Shown here one piece after another: positions 12,540 to 17,257 of a stretch of 64,000 bases of DNA. Position 1 is the stretch's first letter. The number at the start of each line of letters is the position of its first letter. The notes below the pieces were generated by a model. That model was not told the origin of the DNA. It saw nothing but the letters and a program-made list of their open reading frames with translations, and searched no databases. The stretch is from assembly GCF_056712565.1 (NCBI RefSeq), contig NZ_CM160072.1. One strand, given 5' to 3'. A program made the position numbers and the translations under genes.

Positions 12540-12664
12540 GTCTTACCCCCAATAAGGGGATTTGCTCTATTTAATTAGGAATAAGGTCGATTACTGATAG
12601 AACAAATCCAGGCTACTGTGTTTAGTAATCAGATTTGTTCGTGACCGATATGCACGGGCAAAAC

Positions 12665-12694
12665 GGCATGAGGTTGTTAGCGCAACCTCATGCC
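12665..12694 (-). terminator. Candidate tR'-like terminator between late promoter region and S
   Basis: 12-bp perfect stem (GGCATGAGGTTG/CAACCTCATGCC) with 6-nt loop, followed on minus strand by GTTTTG. Confidence 0.45.
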
Positions 12695-13135
12695 ACCCGC
12701 TTTCACGAAGGTCATGTGTAGAAGGCCGCAGCATAACTATCACTGATGAATTCAGGATAGCCAGTGGCTACGGCTCAGGTTGGGTTGTGGCGGTCGGTGC
12801 TGAACTCCGACTTAATGACGATAGGCGTGTACCGACGCCTCGTTTTACTTCCTCCGCTTTCACGGCTTCACCCTAGACCAGCTTTACGAAATCCTCGTAA
12901 ACCTAACCGCGGCAGATATGACCGGCACGGTGTGCCATATCACGGACCGGCGGGTGTCTCGTTCACCTGATTAACGCATCAGCCTGCGTATTCACCACAA
13001 CGATAAGAGTACTGCGCGGCACCTTTCACCAATTCCGCGAGGTCTGCGGGTTCAATGCTCTTACCTGTTGTGCAAACAAAAAAGCCACCGTTGCAACTTA
13101 AGAGTCACTAACGGCAGCTTACCTTCTAATTATGG

Positions 13136-13654
13136 CTAAATGGATAATTGCATGTCAAGGTTTTTAACAGCAACATGCTTAACTTTCTCAACACGTTTAC
13201 GCATTTTGAAAGCATTTTGCATTGGCTGGTATAAAACAAATAATGACGCTTTCAGGATGTCGTCAATTTCGTTTCTACAGGTTGCCAGTGAAGGTTTTCT
13301 CCATCCCTCGCCACCACGTCCACACATCTTGCGTGGCTTTGCAGTCGCGTGATAGTAGGATGCAATTGCTCGCTTAGATGAACCATGAGCGTAGTAGCTG
13401 AGGAGGATGCCAAAGGCTTTCTTGTCAATGTACATGACGGAATCAACGACCTGAGAAATCAACATTCCATCATCATCATTACACATTGGCCTTGTCATAA
13501 TTCTTCCCGGCTCTACGCTCTCCATGAACTTCGCTATTACGCTGCTCATGCGCTTTTCCAGACGACCTGAATAAACCCATGCGCCCCACAGTTCAAGCCA
13601 GCCATTCAGCCACTCGTGCTGCTCTTTGGTGAGGTTTAGTTCTCTTATGCTCAT
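13136..13654 (-). CDS. Q: Late antiterminator Q (phage 82/quuD-like family)
   Basis: 172-aa ORF with WGAW and CxDDD motifs recalled from Q82-type proteins; last gene before late region. Confidence 0.75.
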   Translation of the reverse strand: MSIRELNLTKEQHEWLNGWLELWGAWVYSGRLEKRMSSVIAKFMESVEPGRIMTRPMCNDDDGMLISQVVDSVMYIDKKAFGILLSYYAHGSSKRAIASYYHATAKPRKMCGRGGEGWRKPSLATCRNEIDDILKASLFVLYQPMQNAFKMRKRVEKVKHVAVKNLDMQLSI

Positions 13655-13839
13655 CGTCTTCCCCTCTTGCCTTGTTTGACCATCAGGACGCCGTTAACTA
13701 TTACGTGACGCTCGCCTTTGCTGTCTCGGTTGTACTTGAGCACTGTTCCTCTTGCGCAGGAAAGCATCCTCGCCACTTCGGTCTGATTGCCTCGTGTCTG
13801 GATAAGAAGCTCTGGTATCGTTTGAATTGTGGCGTTCAT
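13651..13839 (-). CDS. ninH: NinH
   Basis: 62-aa ORF with GNQTEVAR...RGTV motif matching recalled lambda NinH; overlaps Q start. Confidence 0.8.
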   Translation of the reverse strand: MNATIQTIPELLIQTRGNQTEVARMLSCARGTVLKYNRDSKGERHVIVNGVLMVKQGKRGRR

Positions 13840-14198
13840 GCGTTCTCCAGTTCGGTGATTTTTATTCCAAGCCGTCCGCCTGGTACTTTCACACCACGAA
13901 TTACGCGAATGTCATCGAATTGCTCGTCGTCTTCCGCAAATCCGGCGTGGATAAGGGAGTCGAGTAAACCTTTCAGGATGTTGTCGAGGTCGCGGCGGCG
14001 GGAGTCTGGAACGTCTGCGATGACTTTGATACGGAGTCGTGATTTGGTGAAAATGTCTAACTTGAGTTGGCGGATGATTTGCTGAACGTCTTTTCGGTAT
14101 TTCTGGCCTTTATCGCTTATGTAATATTGGCTTCCCCGTCTTCGCCAGTAGGTATTCACCGACGGCGGGTATGGAAGCACAAACTGATATTCGTTCAT
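13836..14198 (-). CDS. rusA: Holliday junction resolvase RusA
   Basis: 120-aa ORF with PPSxNxYxR, DxRRRDLDN and GGRL motifs of RusA. Confidence 0.85.
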   Translation of the reverse strand: MNEYQFVLPYPPSVNTYWRRRGSQYYISDKGQKYRKDVQQIIRQLKLDIFTKSRLRIKVIADVPDSRRRDLDNILKGLLDSLIHAGFAEDDEQFDDIRVIRGVKVPGGRLGIKITELENA

Positions 14199-14485
14199 GA
14201 CTTAATCTTCCCCTCCCTCAGCAGTATCGCCTGCGTTCTGATCACGCCTTCGAGGTGGTAAAGTCTGGCGTCTTTGTTGTCGAGATTATGGGTGCGTCGG
14301 TCGATTTCATCGTGACACGCACTACAAGCCCATGCACCGATCAGGTCGTCAGGCTTCATTCCCGTTCCGCAAATTCCAGCCATCCGGTAATGTGCCAGAA
14401 CTGTAGTTTCAGGGTTGCCATTGCATACGCCGTAAATACGTACCTGACATTCTCTTCCGCGCGCTTCTTTGCGTAGGTTAGCCAT
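14195..14485 (-). CDS. YbcO-like DUF1364 protein (putative nuclease)
   Basis: 96-aa ORF, Cys/His-rich, resembles recalled DLP12 YbcO; overlaps neighbours by 4 nt. Confidence 0.6.
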   Translation of the reverse strand: MANLRKEARGRECQVRIYGVCNGNPETTVLAHYRMAGICGTGMKPDDLIGAWACSACHDEIDRRTHNLDNKDARLYHLEGVIRTQAILLREGKIKS

Positions 14486-15207
14486 TAAGCAGCCTCCCCT
14501 GTTACTTTCAGCATTCCGTTATCGAGCAGCTTTCTGGTCAGCCACTGTTGACCACGCCCGGTGATTTTTGTGGTGAACGATATCTGTATTCCGTGATTTG
14601 TGTTGACCGCTGTTTCTTTCACTGTGAAATAGCCGCGATCCATATATTCCTGCATTGGCACATTGCGCCGGGAACCTGAAGCAATAAGGATTTTGTGATC
14701 ACGCATCCACGCAAACAGTTTGTTTTGACCAATACCAACAACCTTTGCAAAGTTTCCAATCAAAATTCCGCTGGCCTCGCCAACGCGATCGGCAAACTCA
14801 ACTTTAGGTGCGACAATTGCGAGCTGGTTTTCCAGTTGCATTTTCTGCTCAGCAAGATCGGCAGCAAGGCGCAACGCTTCCGGTAGCGTTTTGGGGATAT
14901 TAACCGCAGCTTCTTCAAGCTCTCGCCAGCGGTCAACAAGGCGAGCGGTGAACTCTGGCGACAACTGGGCAACAACGACAATACTGTCTCGCTTACCTTG
15001 TTCGCCCTCGAAGACGTAATGCTCGTACTGAACATTGAACCCTAAGTTATTGATTCTTTCGGAAACCTCAATTTGAGGAAGCCGGATAACACCATTTTTA
15101 GCCAGCGTTTCGATGGTACGTTTCACATTGTCATGACGCTTACCAACCAACTCAGCAATTTCAATGCTTGTCATTTTGATGGCATTGCCATTCATTAACT
15201 CATTCAT
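14485..15207 (-). CDS. Rha-family regulator / antirepressor-like protein
   Basis: 240-aa ORF; N-terminus MTSIEIAELVGKRHDNVKRTIE is a typical Rha domain. Confidence 0.75.
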   Translation of the reverse strand: MNELMNGNAIKMTSIEIAELVGKRHDNVKRTIETLAKNGVIRLPQIEVSERINNLGFNVQYEHYVFEGEQGKRDSIVVVAQLSPEFTARLVDRWRELEEAAVNIPKTLPEALRLAADLAEQKMQLENQLAIVAPKVEFADRVGEASGILIGNFAKVVGIGQNKLFAWMRDHKILIASGSRRNVPMQEYMDRGYFTVKETAVNTNHGIQISFTTKITGRGQQWLTRKLLDNGMLKVTGEAA

Positions 15208-15376
15208 CGTCTTCTTCCTCGTACATTGAGCTATTCGGATCGCTCATCAGTTCTGCGCAGCAATCGGAGCACACGTGAACTTCAAGCACATGCAGCTTCT
15301 GACCGCAGTTAGCGCACGTTAATGCCCGCTCGACGCTTTCTTTCTGGTATTGAAGGGATTGGGATGGGCTAAGCAT
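15200..15376 (-). CDS. ninF: NinF-like small zinc-ribbon protein (58 aa; below the ORF-track cutoff)
   Basis: Own translation: [58 protein letters not shown]; start overlaps upstream stop, stop overlaps Rha start. Confidence 0.65.
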   Translation of the reverse strand: MLSPSQSLQYQKESVERALTCANCGQKLHVLEVHVCSDCCAELMSDPNSSMYEEEDDE

Positions 15377-15794
15377 TATTGGCGTCCTGCATCATGAGAA
15401 ATACAATCATGGCGGCGCGGAGTGGAGATTCACCGCAGAAGTAGTAGCCAGGAATATTTTCCCATTCCCAACAACCTTCCTCTAAATCACCTCCTGACCA
15501 TGCGCACCATTCTTTTTCCGCTGTCATCCACATAGTGCTGATTTTGCTTTCAGTGATAATTGGCCACGCGTATTCAGGATTATTGCAAGGATTGAAGCAA
15601 TTTCCGTTTGAAGAACGGAAGCCATTAATATCCCTTTTTTGCGTCTGCCAAATAGGACCTCTTTCGTCAGTGGGGATCTCAGAATCGAAGTCTGCTTCGT
15701 CATCAGGTATGAAGAAATGCTCCTCCATATCTAAAGCCTCACATACTCGTCTGTTAATTTCAAAATCACTTAACTGTGAATAATCCATTGTCAT
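15369..15794 (-). CDS. Hypothetical nin-region protein (141 aa, Trp/Cys-rich)
   Basis: ORF from ATG at 15794 with GAGGAA Shine-Dalgarno, ATGA overlap with ninE stop. Confidence 0.55.
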
Positions 15795-15967
15795 TTCCTC
15801 GCACGATGTCTTAGCAACCGGATATCCCACAGGTGAGCCGTGTAGTTGAAGGTTTTTACGTCAGATTCTTTTGGGATTGGCTTGCGTTTATTTCTGGTGC
15901 GTTTCGTTGGAAGGTATTTGCAGTTTTCGCAGATGATGTCGGTGATACTTCGTCGCTGTCGCCTCAT
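15791..15967 (-). CDS. ninE: NinE
   Basis: 58-aa [37 protein letters not shown]... matching recalled lambda NinE; ATGA overlap with ninB. Confidence 0.7.
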
Positions 15968-16374
15968 TCGTACCTCCTGTCGGTAAATCTGACACCCTGA
16001 CCAATAGCCCATGCTGTTGTGTACTCGATCAGACTTGCCATACGCTTCACACTCATCTGCGCGCTGCTTTCGCGAATGTTGACGTATTCGCCTTCAAGCC
16101 CGGGCAAAACATCAGCTTCCTGTTTTGTTGCCACTGCATGACCGCTGATCAACAAAACCTTCCATTGTTCTGGTTTTAACCATTTATCGCGCCACTGAAC
16201 TTGCCTAGCGATATCTGCGACCATCGCGTGAAATTTTGCGTTCTGGTCAAGGTTGCGCTTGTAGTCAGTAATGCGGATGGTGACTGGCTTGTCTTTATCG
16301 AGTGGTGTTGCGAGGATGGCATTTATTGCAGCTTGCTGTTGTTGCTTAGTTCGGAGGAATATTGTTTGCTTCAC
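15964..16374 (-). CDS. ninB: NinB (Orf-family recombination mediator)
   Basis: 136-aa ORF with DQNAKFHAM...QWRDKWL motif resembling lambda NinB. Confidence 0.8.
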
Positions 16375-16385
16375 TGAATACTCCT

Positions 16386-16577
16386 TTATTTTTTATGCCT
16401 GTAACCCCATTCTTCCAGCAACCTTGCGGCGTACCACCCAAGAAACAAAGGAAAGAACATTACAATGAGATATTTCCCGCCACGGTCAATGTTCGAAATT
16501 GACCAGATTACGATGTAACCAGTGCAGGACAGGAATATTACAAACCCCAAAAAGCTACTTCGTCGACTCATGCTCAC
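16386..16577 (-). CDS. Small membrane protein (63 aa, two predicted TM helices)
   Basis: Hydrophobic ORF with basic C-terminus, translationally coupled to upstream gene. Confidence 0.45.
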   Translation of the reverse strand: MSMSRRSSFLGFVIFLSCTGYIVIWSISNIDRGGKYLIVMFFPLFLGWYAARLLEEWGYRHKK

Positions 16578-16991
16578 TCCTTCACTTTGATTCCAGCGGC
16601 GCGGATAGCCTCTACATCGCTTTCGTATTGCGATTCTGCACCTGAGTCATAGCCAATGTGATAATCACCGGGAAGTGGGCCTTTCTTTGGCTTTTGCAGC
16701 TCAATTTCAATAGCTGCTCTCGATGCCTGCCACGTTTGCCAGTGGCCTTGAACATCGTCCATCACGTATTGACCACCAATATCACCACTGCCAATTTCAT
16801 GGTGATTTTCAGGGTAACGGATAAGGTCTGAAGATTCGCCCCCCACGTCGTAACCAACTCTCTTCAAACTGGCATCTGCTTTCGTCATCTTTCATAAGGC
16901 AGTCACATTCAATAAAAATCGGCTCTCCCCAAGGAGTAGAACCTCCGCTATCACACATTCCTGTGTTATTGCACTTTTGGCACTTGCTCAC
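16574..16991 (-). pseudogene. Zn-ribbon protein gene apparently split by a frameshift at a G6 tract
   Basis: 60-aa GTG-start ORF (16809..16991, CxxC...CxC, GGAGG Shine-Dalgarno) overlaps a 104-aa ORF (16574..16888) in another frame; frames join at coding-strand G6 (plus C6 16839..16844). Confidence 0.35.
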
Positions 16992-17224: not shown

Positions 17225-17257
17225 CAAATAAAAAGGCCTGCGATTACCAGCAGGCCT
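17225..17257 (-). terminator. tR2-like rho-independent terminator after the helicase gene
   Basis: Minus strand AGGCCTGC-8 nt-GCAGGCCT followed by TTTTTATTT. Confidence 0.6.

What the first reader, a model, noticed from the sequence alone, without database searches (positions are those of the whole stretch)
15200..15376. Unannotated NinF-like zinc-ribbon gene below the 60-aa ORF cutoff
A 58-aa ORF with a CxxC...CxxCC motif is translationally coupled on both sides (start overlaps the upstream stop; its stop overlaps the Rha start). It is absent from the supplied ORF track and fills an otherwise unexplained gap.
Basis: partly seen in the sequence, partly recalled or inferred. Interest (0 to 1): 0.25.

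Follow-up and report, generated by a model that had tools for sequence, protein, structure and literature searches.

The report
Known phage gene ninF, correctly spotted

Summary
The ORF is real. It lies at 15200-15376 on the minus strand and encodes 58 aa with C21xxC24...C36xxC39C40. It overlaps NinX upstream by 8 nt (ATGCTTAG) and a Rha/KilAC (Roi-like) gene downstream by 8 nt (ATGAATGA).

It is NinF itself:
- Pfam PF05810 scores 51.6 bits against a cutoff of 27.5.
- PHROG 672 matches at E 6e-37.
- It is 85% identical to lambda NinF and 98% to Kapi1 NinF.
- The DNA is 100% identical to prophages in E. coli ATCC 11775, APEC O1 and S88, where RefSeq annotates this exact ORF as "protein NinF" (WP_000950973.1).

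dN/dS against seven phage ninF genes is 0.06-0.41. Four cysteines, the acidic tail, the overlaps and the position before the junction-resolvase genes hold even in homologues of 34-45% identity.

"Unannotated" is therefore an artefact of the length cutoff. "Zinc ribbon" is only partly supported. A Cys4 site is very likely, but the AF2 model (pLDDT 82) puts the second Cys pair at the start of a helix, which is treble-clef-like. No solved structure matches significantly.

The function is unknown. The gene is non-essential in lambda. The family is uniformly acidic (pI 4.05-5.66), so I favour a small zinc-stabilised protein-binding accessory factor of the delayed-early operon. Ordinary and already known.

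The parts
15200..15376 (-). ninF coding sequence: 58 aa, ATG start, TGA stop
   Evidence: ORF. Pfam PF05810 NinF E 8.2e-14, 51.6 bits against cutoff 27.5. PHROG 672 E 5.7e-37 over the full length. 85% identical to lambda NinF and 98% to Kapi1 NinF. Identical ORF annotated as WP_000950973.1 'protein NinF'. dN/dS 0.06-0.41.
15257..15316 (-). Cys-rich core CANCGQKLHVLEVHVCSDCC (C21, C24, C36, C39, C40): the putative Cys4 metal site
   Evidence: Translation. C21, C24 and C36 are invariant and C39 is at least 90% conserved across 24 homologues down to 34% identity. C40 is conserved only among the close relatives. It substitutes for C39 in Salmonella 'CEASC' variants. In the AF2 model a knuckle at residues 21-24 packs against a helix at 37-44.
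15369..15376 (-). 8-nt overlap ATGCTTAG: the ninF start codon lies inside the last codons and TAG stop of ninX
   Evidence: Sequence read directly. The same 8-nt overlap is annotated in Kapi1 and P22. A 4-nt overlap with NinE is annotated in lambda, HK620, 434 and ES18.
15385..15388 (-). Shine-Dalgarno-like AGGA, 8 nt before the ninF ATG, inside ninX
   Evidence: Sequence read directly. This is a consensus resemblance only.
15200..15207 (-). 8-nt overlap ATGAATGA: the start codon of the Rha/KilAC gene lies inside the last codons and TGA stop of ninF
   Evidence: Sequence read directly. ninF overlaps the downstream gene by 8-20 nt in all six other phages examined, whether that gene is roi, ninG or an HNH endonuclease.
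15216..15220 (-). Shine-Dalgarno-like GAGGA for the downstream Rha/KilAC gene, embedded in the codons of the NinF acidic tail (YEEEDDE)
   Evidence: Sequence read directly. This is a consensus resemblance only.
15369..15794 (-). ninX (DUF2591), the upstream neighbour. The RefSeq start is used; the mechanical ORF extends to a GTG at 15830
   Evidence: Pfam PF10765 Phage_P22_NinX E 2.9e-14. RefSeq annotation. Translation.
14485..15207 (-). Rha N-terminal / KilAC C-terminal antirepressor-type gene (Roi-like), the downstream neighbour
   Evidence: Pfam ANT (KilAC) E 7.9e-33 and Phage_pRha E 6.2e-09. PHROG 63 'anti-repressor Ant' E 1.6e-99. The equivalent gene is annotated as roi in HK620, CUS-3 and H-19B.
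13136..16374 (-). The nin-region operon holding ninF: ninB, ninE, ninX, ninF, rha/roi-like, ybcO (DUF1364), rusA, ninH, Q
   Evidence: Pfam hits for every member. RefSeq annotation of the identical DNA. A tR2-like terminator hairpin lies at 17257..17234 (-) after the helicase gene, and a PR'-like promoter match at 13158..13129 (-) at the end of Q (consensus scans only).

Best explanation
Identity. The interval is ninF, a member of the small NinF family (Pfam PF05810, PHROG 672). It sits in the nin region of a P22-like/lambdoid prophage of E. coli, on the window's minus strand.

Shown here. It is a genuine protein-coding gene under purifying selection. It is packed between ninX and a Roi-like Rha/KilAC gene with 8-nt overlaps on both sides. 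It lies in the block between a tR2-like terminator and gene Q.

Inferred expression. By analogy with lambda and P22, it is transcribed only in lytic growth, on the antiterminated PR (delayed-early) transcript. Ribosomes finishing ninX reinitiate at the overlapping ATG to translate it, and ribosomes finishing ninF do the same for the downstream gene.

Product. The model shows an N-terminal helix (about residues 4-18), a CxxC knuckle (21-24), a second Cys pair at the start of a short helix (36-44), and a disordered tail DPNSSMYEEEDDE. This part is inferred from the AF2 model and from conservation.

Most likely mechanism (inferred, not shown). The four cysteines hold one Zn2+ that stabilises a fold too small to have a hydrophobic core. 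Net charge is about -9 (pI 4.3) and the protein has no basic surface, so it probably acts by binding another protein rather than nucleic acid. It would be a dispensable accessory modulator of the early lytic programme. Because it always lies just upstream of the Holliday-junction resolvase genes (NinG/Rap or YbcO-RusA), the partner may belong to that recombination and DNA-processing module, or may be a basic host DNA-binding protein.

Its function has not been determined experimentally.
For: Identity:
- Pfam NinF 51.6 bits against cutoff 27.5.
- PHROG 672 E 5.7e-37.
- 85% identical to lambda NinF and 98% to Kapi1 NinF.
- 100% DNA identity to RefSeq genomes that annotate 'protein NinF' at the same coordinates.

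Coding:
- dN/dS 0.06-0.41 against lambda, Kapi1, HK620, ES18, P22, 434 and phiKp_30.

Cys4 site:
- C21, C24 and C36 invariant, C39 at least 90% conserved, in 24 sequences down to 34% identity.

Fold:
- AF2 mean pLDDT 81.8, helices at 4-18 and 37-44.

Acidity:
- pI 4.05-5.66 and net charge -3 to -12 in all 24 family members.

Synteny and overlaps:
- Conserved in lambda, Kapi1, HK620, ES18, P22 and 434.
- In distant homologues, ninX-ninF-(gene)-ninG-ninH-Q and ninE-ninF-ybcO-rusA-ninH-Q.
- Synteny of ninD/E/F is also noted in PMC4118853.

Operon frame:
- A terminator-like hairpin follows the helicase gene, a promoter-like site lies at the end of Q, and there is no strong signal around ninF.

Expression and dispensability:
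- ninF is not detected in the Kapi1 lysogen transcriptome (PMC12922286).
- Lambda ninF is scored non-essential once Q is supplied in trans, and it is removed by viable nin deletions cited there (PMC10695390).

Protein binding:
- Yeast two-hybrid pairs of lambda NinF with M (two vector combinations), A and U (PMC3224144).
Against: - No experiment shows zinc binding, a partner or a phenotype for any NinF. None was found in four literature searches.
- The two-hybrid partners are head and tail proteins (A, M, U), not recombination proteins. They are mostly single-vector hits of uncertain relevance.
- Conserved position next to the resolvase genes may reflect only the conserved order of the whole nin region.
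- The acidic tail codons also carry the Shine-Dalgarno-like GAGGA of the downstream gene, so part of that conservation could act at the RNA level.
- The AF2 model has a modest pTM (0.49) and contains no metal.
- Coupling is inferred from the geometry only.
Confidence: 0.9

Rival explanations
1. NinF is a nucleic-acid-binding zinc-finger regulator, comparable in size and Cys4 pattern to phage Mu Com (a translational activator that binds RNA) or the P2 Ogr / P4 Delta late-gene activators. On this reading it controls expression of neighbouring or late genes.
For: It has a small Cys4 motif and lies in a regulatory-rich region just upstream of an antirepressor-type gene, ninH and Q. The weak sub-threshold resemblances are all to nucleic-acid-associated zinc modules: the Cas12f1-like TNB domain at E 0.0097 and a TnpB-like protein at E 0.14.
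Against: - Net charge is about -9, with only 3 Lys/Arg, and the whole family has pI 4.05-5.66. That is the opposite of what a DNA/RNA-binding finger needs.
- No Pfam, NCBIfam or PDB match to Com, Ogr or any other regulator reaches significance.
- The gene is dispensable in lambda when Q is supplied.
- The comparison with Com and Ogr rests on my own knowledge. It was not tested by alignment here.
Confidence: 0.07
2. The peptide itself matters little. The ORF is kept mainly as a translational relay, so that ribosomes pass from ninE/ninX to the downstream gene (ninG, roi or an HNH gene) through overlapping stop and start codons.
For: Overlaps occur at both ends in all seven phages examined, although the flanking genes differ. 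The Shine-Dalgarno-like GAGGA of the downstream gene is built from the NinF tail codons. No phenotype is known for ninF.
Against: - A relay needs only an open frame, yet dN/dS is 0.06-0.41.
- Four cysteines, Y10, R17, L28 and E32 are kept down to 34% identity.
- The length is held at 56-61 aa.
- In one distant homologue, ninF is followed by a 110-nt gap before ybcO, so there is no overlap there, yet the protein is conserved.
Confidence: 0.06
3. The ORF is a chance open frame in an intergenic spacer and makes no protein.
For: Spurious ORFs of 50-70 codons are common in this window. NinF was not detected in a lysogen transcriptome, as expected for any repressed prophage gene.
Against: Family-level homology is above curated cutoffs. 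The frame is under purifying selection. Position, length and cysteines are conserved in 223 phage records and in distant relatives. Many independent groups and RefSeq annotate it.
Confidence: 0.01

Closest known systems
Bacteriophage lambda NinF (NP_040638, orf56 of the nin region; Pfam PF05810, PHROG 672)
   Same: 85% identity over 52 aa. It has the same CANCGQKLHVLEVHVC..CC core and the same DPNSSM-EEEDD tail. It holds the same place in the nin region between ninE and the junction-resolvase gene, and overlaps both neighbours.
   Different: - The N-terminal 10 residues differ: [12 protein letters not shown] here, as in P22 and Kapi1, against (V/M)IDQNRSYEQ in lambda.
- The start codon is ATG here and GTG in lambda.
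- The upstream neighbour is ninX here and ninE in lambda.
- The downstream neighbour is a Roi-like Rha/KilAC gene followed by ybcO-rusA here, and ninG (rap) in lambda.
NinF of P22-like phages (P22 gp58/orf58b; Escherichia phage Kapi1 QOC59549)
   Same: 58 aa, 98% identical to Kapi1 NinF. The ninX-ninF arrangement with an 8-nt overlap is identical. Kapi1 also has the same downstream antirepressor, HNH/DUF1364, RusA, NinH, Q order.
   Different: There is one amino-acid difference from Kapi1 (S7T). P22 has ninG downstream instead of the Roi-like gene.
Generic small Cys4 zinc modules (zinc ribbon; treble clef as in RING, LIM and ArfGAP domains)
   Same: There are two Cys pairs 11 residues apart. 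The AF2 model shows a knuckle plus the N-terminus of a helix. The best, non-significant, Foldseek matches are the RING, LIM and ArfGAP domains (E 0.4 or higher).

Membership tests
NinF (Pfam PF05810 / PHROG 672) | Score above the curated family threshold | tested here: met
   Pfam NinF E 8.2e-14, 51.6 bits against gathering cutoff 27.5, covering profile positions 1-25 of 25. PHROG 672 E 5.7e-37, positions 1-58 of 58.
NinF (Pfam PF05810 / PHROG 672) | Full-length similarity to the prototype, lambda NinF | tested here: met
   BLASTP gives 44/52 identical residues (85%), E 1e-32.
NinF (Pfam PF05810 / PHROG 672) | Conserved cysteines CxxC-x11-CxxC | tested here: met
   C21, C24, C36 and C39 are present. 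C21, C24 and C36 are invariant and C39 is at least 90% conserved in the family alignment.
NinF (Pfam PF05810 / PHROG 672) | Length of about 56-61 aa with an acidic C-terminal tail | tested here: met
   58 aa, tail YEEEDDE, pI 4.27. Full-length family members are 56-66 aa with pI 4.05-5.66.
NinF (Pfam PF05810 / PHROG 672) | Position in the nin region: after ninE/ninX, before the resolvase block, ninH and Q | tested here: met
   Window order is ninB-ninE-ninX-ninF-rha-ybcO-rusA-ninH-Q. The same relative position is seen in lambda, Kapi1, HK620, ES18, P22, 434 and two distant homologues.
   The AF2 model (pLDDT 81.8) shows only a two-residue beta bridge around the first knuckle and puts C36/C39 at the start of helix 37-44, which is treble-clef-like. 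DZR_2 scores 16.6 bits against a cutoff of 27. No structural match is significant.
   Only conservation of the four Cys supports it. It needs metal analysis of purified protein.
Translationally coupled gene pair | Stop codon of the upstream gene overlaps or abuts the start codon of the downstream gene | tested here: met
   ATGCTTAG at 15369-15376 and ATGAATGA at 15200-15207.
Translationally coupled gene pair | Downstream translation depends on upstream translation | not testable with these tools
   It needs nonsense-mutant or reporter experiments.

The most novel reading that the evidence does not exclude
NinF could be a zinc-stabilised acidic decoy: a mimic of nucleic acid or of a protein tail. 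Early in lytic growth it would bind and neutralise a basic host DNA-binding or defence protein. Alternatively it would tune the phage's own junction-resolving nucleases (Rap, or YbcO/RusA). Either would give the first function to one of the last uncharacterised lambda genes. My evidence does not exclude this. The family is uniformly acidic, is conserved under purifying selection, lies next to the resolvase genes and has no known function.
Probability: 0.15. Interest if true: 0.45.

Novelty: already known. Interest (0 to 1): 0.07.

Why it matters
For the scan it matters little. The gene is a textbook member of the lambda nin region and is already annotated in RefSeq at these coordinates. Its absence from the ORF track shows only that a 60-aa cutoff hides real small phage genes; ninE (58 aa in the RefSeq annotation) falls under the same cutoff.

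More generally, NinF remains one of the few lambda proteins with no assigned function. The comparative picture assembled here makes concrete, testable predictions for anyone who wants to characterise it:
- A very small family: 41 clusters at 50% identity among 1.84 billion representative proteins.
- An invariant Cys4 pattern.
- A strongly acidic protein.
- A fixed position before the resolvase genes.

Tried and rejected
- Chance ORF: rejected on homology, dN/dS and synteny.
- A gene on the + strand: no ORF of 30 aa or more overlaps 15200-15376 on that strand.
- NCBIfam: no model matches NinF, so that library adds nothing.
- Solved-structure relatives by sequence profile: the best is ShdD at E 0.009 over 23 residues around a 'EVYVCEKCC' motif, with HPV E6 zinc motifs at E 0.03 or higher. 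I judged these to be motif-level chance resemblance.
- First AF2 run with only close homologues: pLDDT 65, pTM 0.26, too poor to use. The second run, with distant homologues added, reached pLDDT 81.8.
- Exhaustive profile search for remote relatives that might carry an annotated function: only 41 clusters, all NinF-sized proteins, fragments or fusions.
- Literature: the first search was swamped by unrelated 'NINF...' words. Whole-word searches found only genome descriptions, the lambda two-hybrid map and a CRISPRi essentiality screen. No functional study turned up.
- tRNA search of the window: none found.

Full report
**1. The observation**

The ORF list has an ATG-started, 58-codon ORF at exactly 15200..15376, on the minus strand of the window. 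Its product is [58 protein letters not shown].

Reading the minus strand confirms both overlaps.
- The upstream frame ends ...GAC GCC AAT AAT GCT TAG. The ninF ATG (15376-15374) sits inside it, giving an 8-nt overlap, ATGCTTAG.
- ninF ends ...GAA GAC GAT GAA TGA. The downstream gene's ATG (15207-15205) sits inside that, giving an 8-nt overlap, ATGAATGA.
- Shine-Dalgarno-like AGGA and GAGGA lie 8 nt before the two ATGs.

No ORF of 30 aa or more on the + strand overlaps the interval. An open frame of this length is not in itself unusual, since one search lists many spurious ones nearby. The case for a gene therefore rests on comparative evidence.

**2. What it is**

The protein matches Pfam NinF (PF05810) at E 8.2e-14, 51.6 bits against a gathering cutoff of 27.5. 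It matches PHROG 672 ('unknown function') over its full length at E 5.7e-37. It is 85% identical to lambda NinF over 52 aa and 98% identical to NinF of the P22-like phage Kapi1.

A 2-kb stretch around it is 100% identical to prophages in E. coli ATCC 11775, APEC O1, S88 and other strains. Related DNA occurs in 2380 of 5426 complete E. coli genomes. In ATCC 11775, RefSeq annotates the identical 177-nt ORF as 'protein NinF', WP_000950973.1. Many phage records name it NinF as well.

**3. Neighbourhood**

On the minus strand the order is:
- ninB (16374-15964)
- ninE
- ninX (15794-15369)
- ninF
- a Rha N-terminal / KilAC C-terminal antirepressor-type gene, called roi in HK620, CUS-3 and H-19B (15207-14485)
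- ybcO/DUF1364
- rusA
- ninH
- Q (13654-13136)

Each has a Pfam hit above its cutoff and matching RefSeq annotation. A strong terminator-like hairpin follows the DnaB-type helicase gene (17257..17234, minus strand). An 11/12 promoter-like match lies at the end of Q (13158..13129, minus strand). Nothing comparable lies next to ninF (these are consensus scans only).

This is the classical nin region of lambdoid phages, between tR2 and Q. The wider record shows a P22-like prophage next to dsdC/torI, with a portal, a P22-type capsid protein and gp4/gp10-type proteins.

**4. Is it really coding?**

Nei-Gojobori dN/dS between the window's ninF and ninF of lambda, Kapi1, HK620, ES18, P22, 434 and Klebsiella phage phiKp_30 is 0.30, 0.06, 0.41, 0.11, 0.16, 0.24 and 0.32. 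That is purifying selection in this frame.

tblastn finds the protein in 223 phage records, 222 of them covering at least 80% of it.

An exhaustive HMMER profile search of 1.84 billion representative proteins finds only 41 clusters. The family is therefore real but very small, and confined to enterobacterial lambdoid phages.

In an alignment that includes members only 34-50% identical, M1, C21, C24, E32 and C36 are invariant. Y10, R17, L28 and C39 are at least 90% conserved. C40 is conserved only among close relatives. In Salmonella variants reading CEASC, C39 is replaced by Ser and C40 is retained, so the CC doublet may offer alternative ligands.

**5. Conserved arrangement**

ninF overlaps both neighbours in lambda, Kapi1, HK620, ES18, P22 and 434. 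The upstream overlap is 4 or 8 nt and the downstream overlap is 8 to 20 nt. This holds although the upstream gene is ninE or ninX and the downstream gene is ninG, roi or an HNH endonuclease.

Two distant homologues found in other assemblies keep the same place: ninX-ninF-orf-ninG-ninH-...-Q, and ninE-ninF-ybcO-rusA-ninH-Q. In the second, a 110-nt gap follows ninF, so the downstream overlap is not universal.

**6. Structure**

With close homologues only, AlphaFold2 gave a poor model (pLDDT 65). With distant homologues added, mean pLDDT rose to 81.8 and pTM to 0.49. The model shows a helix at residues 4-18, a CxxC knuckle at 21-24 with a minimal beta bridge, a second helix at 37-44 that starts at C36, and an unstructured acidic tail.

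So a Cys4 metal site is very probable. The label 'zinc ribbon' is unproven.

**7. How it most likely works**

Shown:
- It is a conserved, selected small protein.
- All 24 aligned family members are acidic, with pI 4.05-5.66 and net charge -3 to -12. This one has pI 4.27, charge -9.3, and only three Lys/Arg.
- It lies in the delayed-early block.

From the literature:
- Lambda ninF is non-essential once Q is supplied in trans (PMC10695390).
- ninF is not detected in the transcriptome of a Kapi1 lysogen (PMC12922286).
- Yeast two-hybrid screens paired lambda NinF with M (two vector combinations), A and U. Its function is listed there as unknown (PMC3224144).

Inferred:
- It is transcribed from the antiterminated PR transcript during lytic growth.
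- It is translated by reinitiation at the overlapping stop and start codons.
- It folds around one zinc ion.
- Because it is so acidic, it acts by binding a protein rather than DNA or RNA, as a dispensable accessory factor. The partner may be in the adjacent recombination and junction-resolution module, or may be a basic host protein.

I put identity at above 0.95 and this mechanistic sketch at roughly 0.35.

Rivals:
- A Com/Ogr-like nucleic-acid-binding regulator. The charge and the absence of any homology argue against it.
- A mere translational relay. Residue-level conservation argues against it.
- A chance ORF. The comparative data refute it.

**8. Comparison with the known, and novelty**

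Every defining feature of the NinF family that I could test is met: the profile score, similarity to the prototype, the Cys pattern, size and tail, and position. The gene is a member, nearly identical to P22-type NinF, and already annotated in public databases.

Nothing here is new apart from a tidier comparative description. Interest is low. The only more novel reading that remains open is that NinF is an acidic zinc-stabilised decoy or modulator with a specific target. No evidence here goes beyond composition and gene order for that reading.

Noticed in passing
window 16574-16991 (-): Two overlapping ORFs lie between the helicase gene and ninB: 60 aa at 16809..16991, Cys-rich (MSKCQKCNNTGMCD...), and 104 aa at 16574..16888. 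They correspond to a gene that RefSeq marks 'hypothetical protein, frameshifted' in the identical ATCC 11775 prophage. Pfam found nothing for the 104-aa part.
   Followed up: partly
window 17234-17257 (-) and 13129-13158 (-): A strong terminator-like hairpin (AGGCCTGC...GCAGGCCT followed by TTTTATTT) lies right after the DnaB-type helicase gene, in the position of lambda tR2. An 11/12 sigma-70 promoter-like match (TTGACA-18-CATAAT) lies at the 3' end of gene Q, in the position of PR'. These are consensus scans only.
   Followed up: no
window 12540-13135: The roughly 600-nt gap between Q and the holin gene contains no tRNA gene. The otherwise very similar phage Kapi1 carries tRNA-Asn and tRNA-Thr at this place.
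   Followed up: partly
window 15791-16012 (-) and 15369-15830 (-): The mechanical ORFs for ninE (73 aa) and ninX (153 aa, GTG start) are longer than the RefSeq gene models (58 aa and 141 aa, starting at 15967 and 15794). The RefSeq starts give 4-nt overlaps with the preceding stop codons, so the whole ninB-ninE-ninX-ninF-rha-ybcO-rusA-ninH-Q block is a chain of overlapping genes. With the RefSeq start, ninE (58 aa) also falls under a 60-aa cutoff.
   Followed up: partly
related proteins P0004, P0033, P0039, P0082, P0104, P0018/P0057: Database variants of NinF include:
- a form with a 5-aa tandem duplication (HVLEV-HVLEV);
- Salmonella forms with C39 replaced by Ser and C40 kept;
- forms with replaced C-termini;
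- predicted fusions carrying NinB+NinF, NinE+NinF or YbcO+NinF Pfam domains.
These suggest that mosaic recombination joints or deletions often fall within or beside ninF.
   Followed up: no
L006 1201-1374 (Klebsiella phage phiKp_30, LC768498.2): This phage record has an intact ninF (GTG start, 57 aa, 82% identical) that is not annotated there. The table shows no CDS between ninB and the next gene at that spot.
   Followed up: partly
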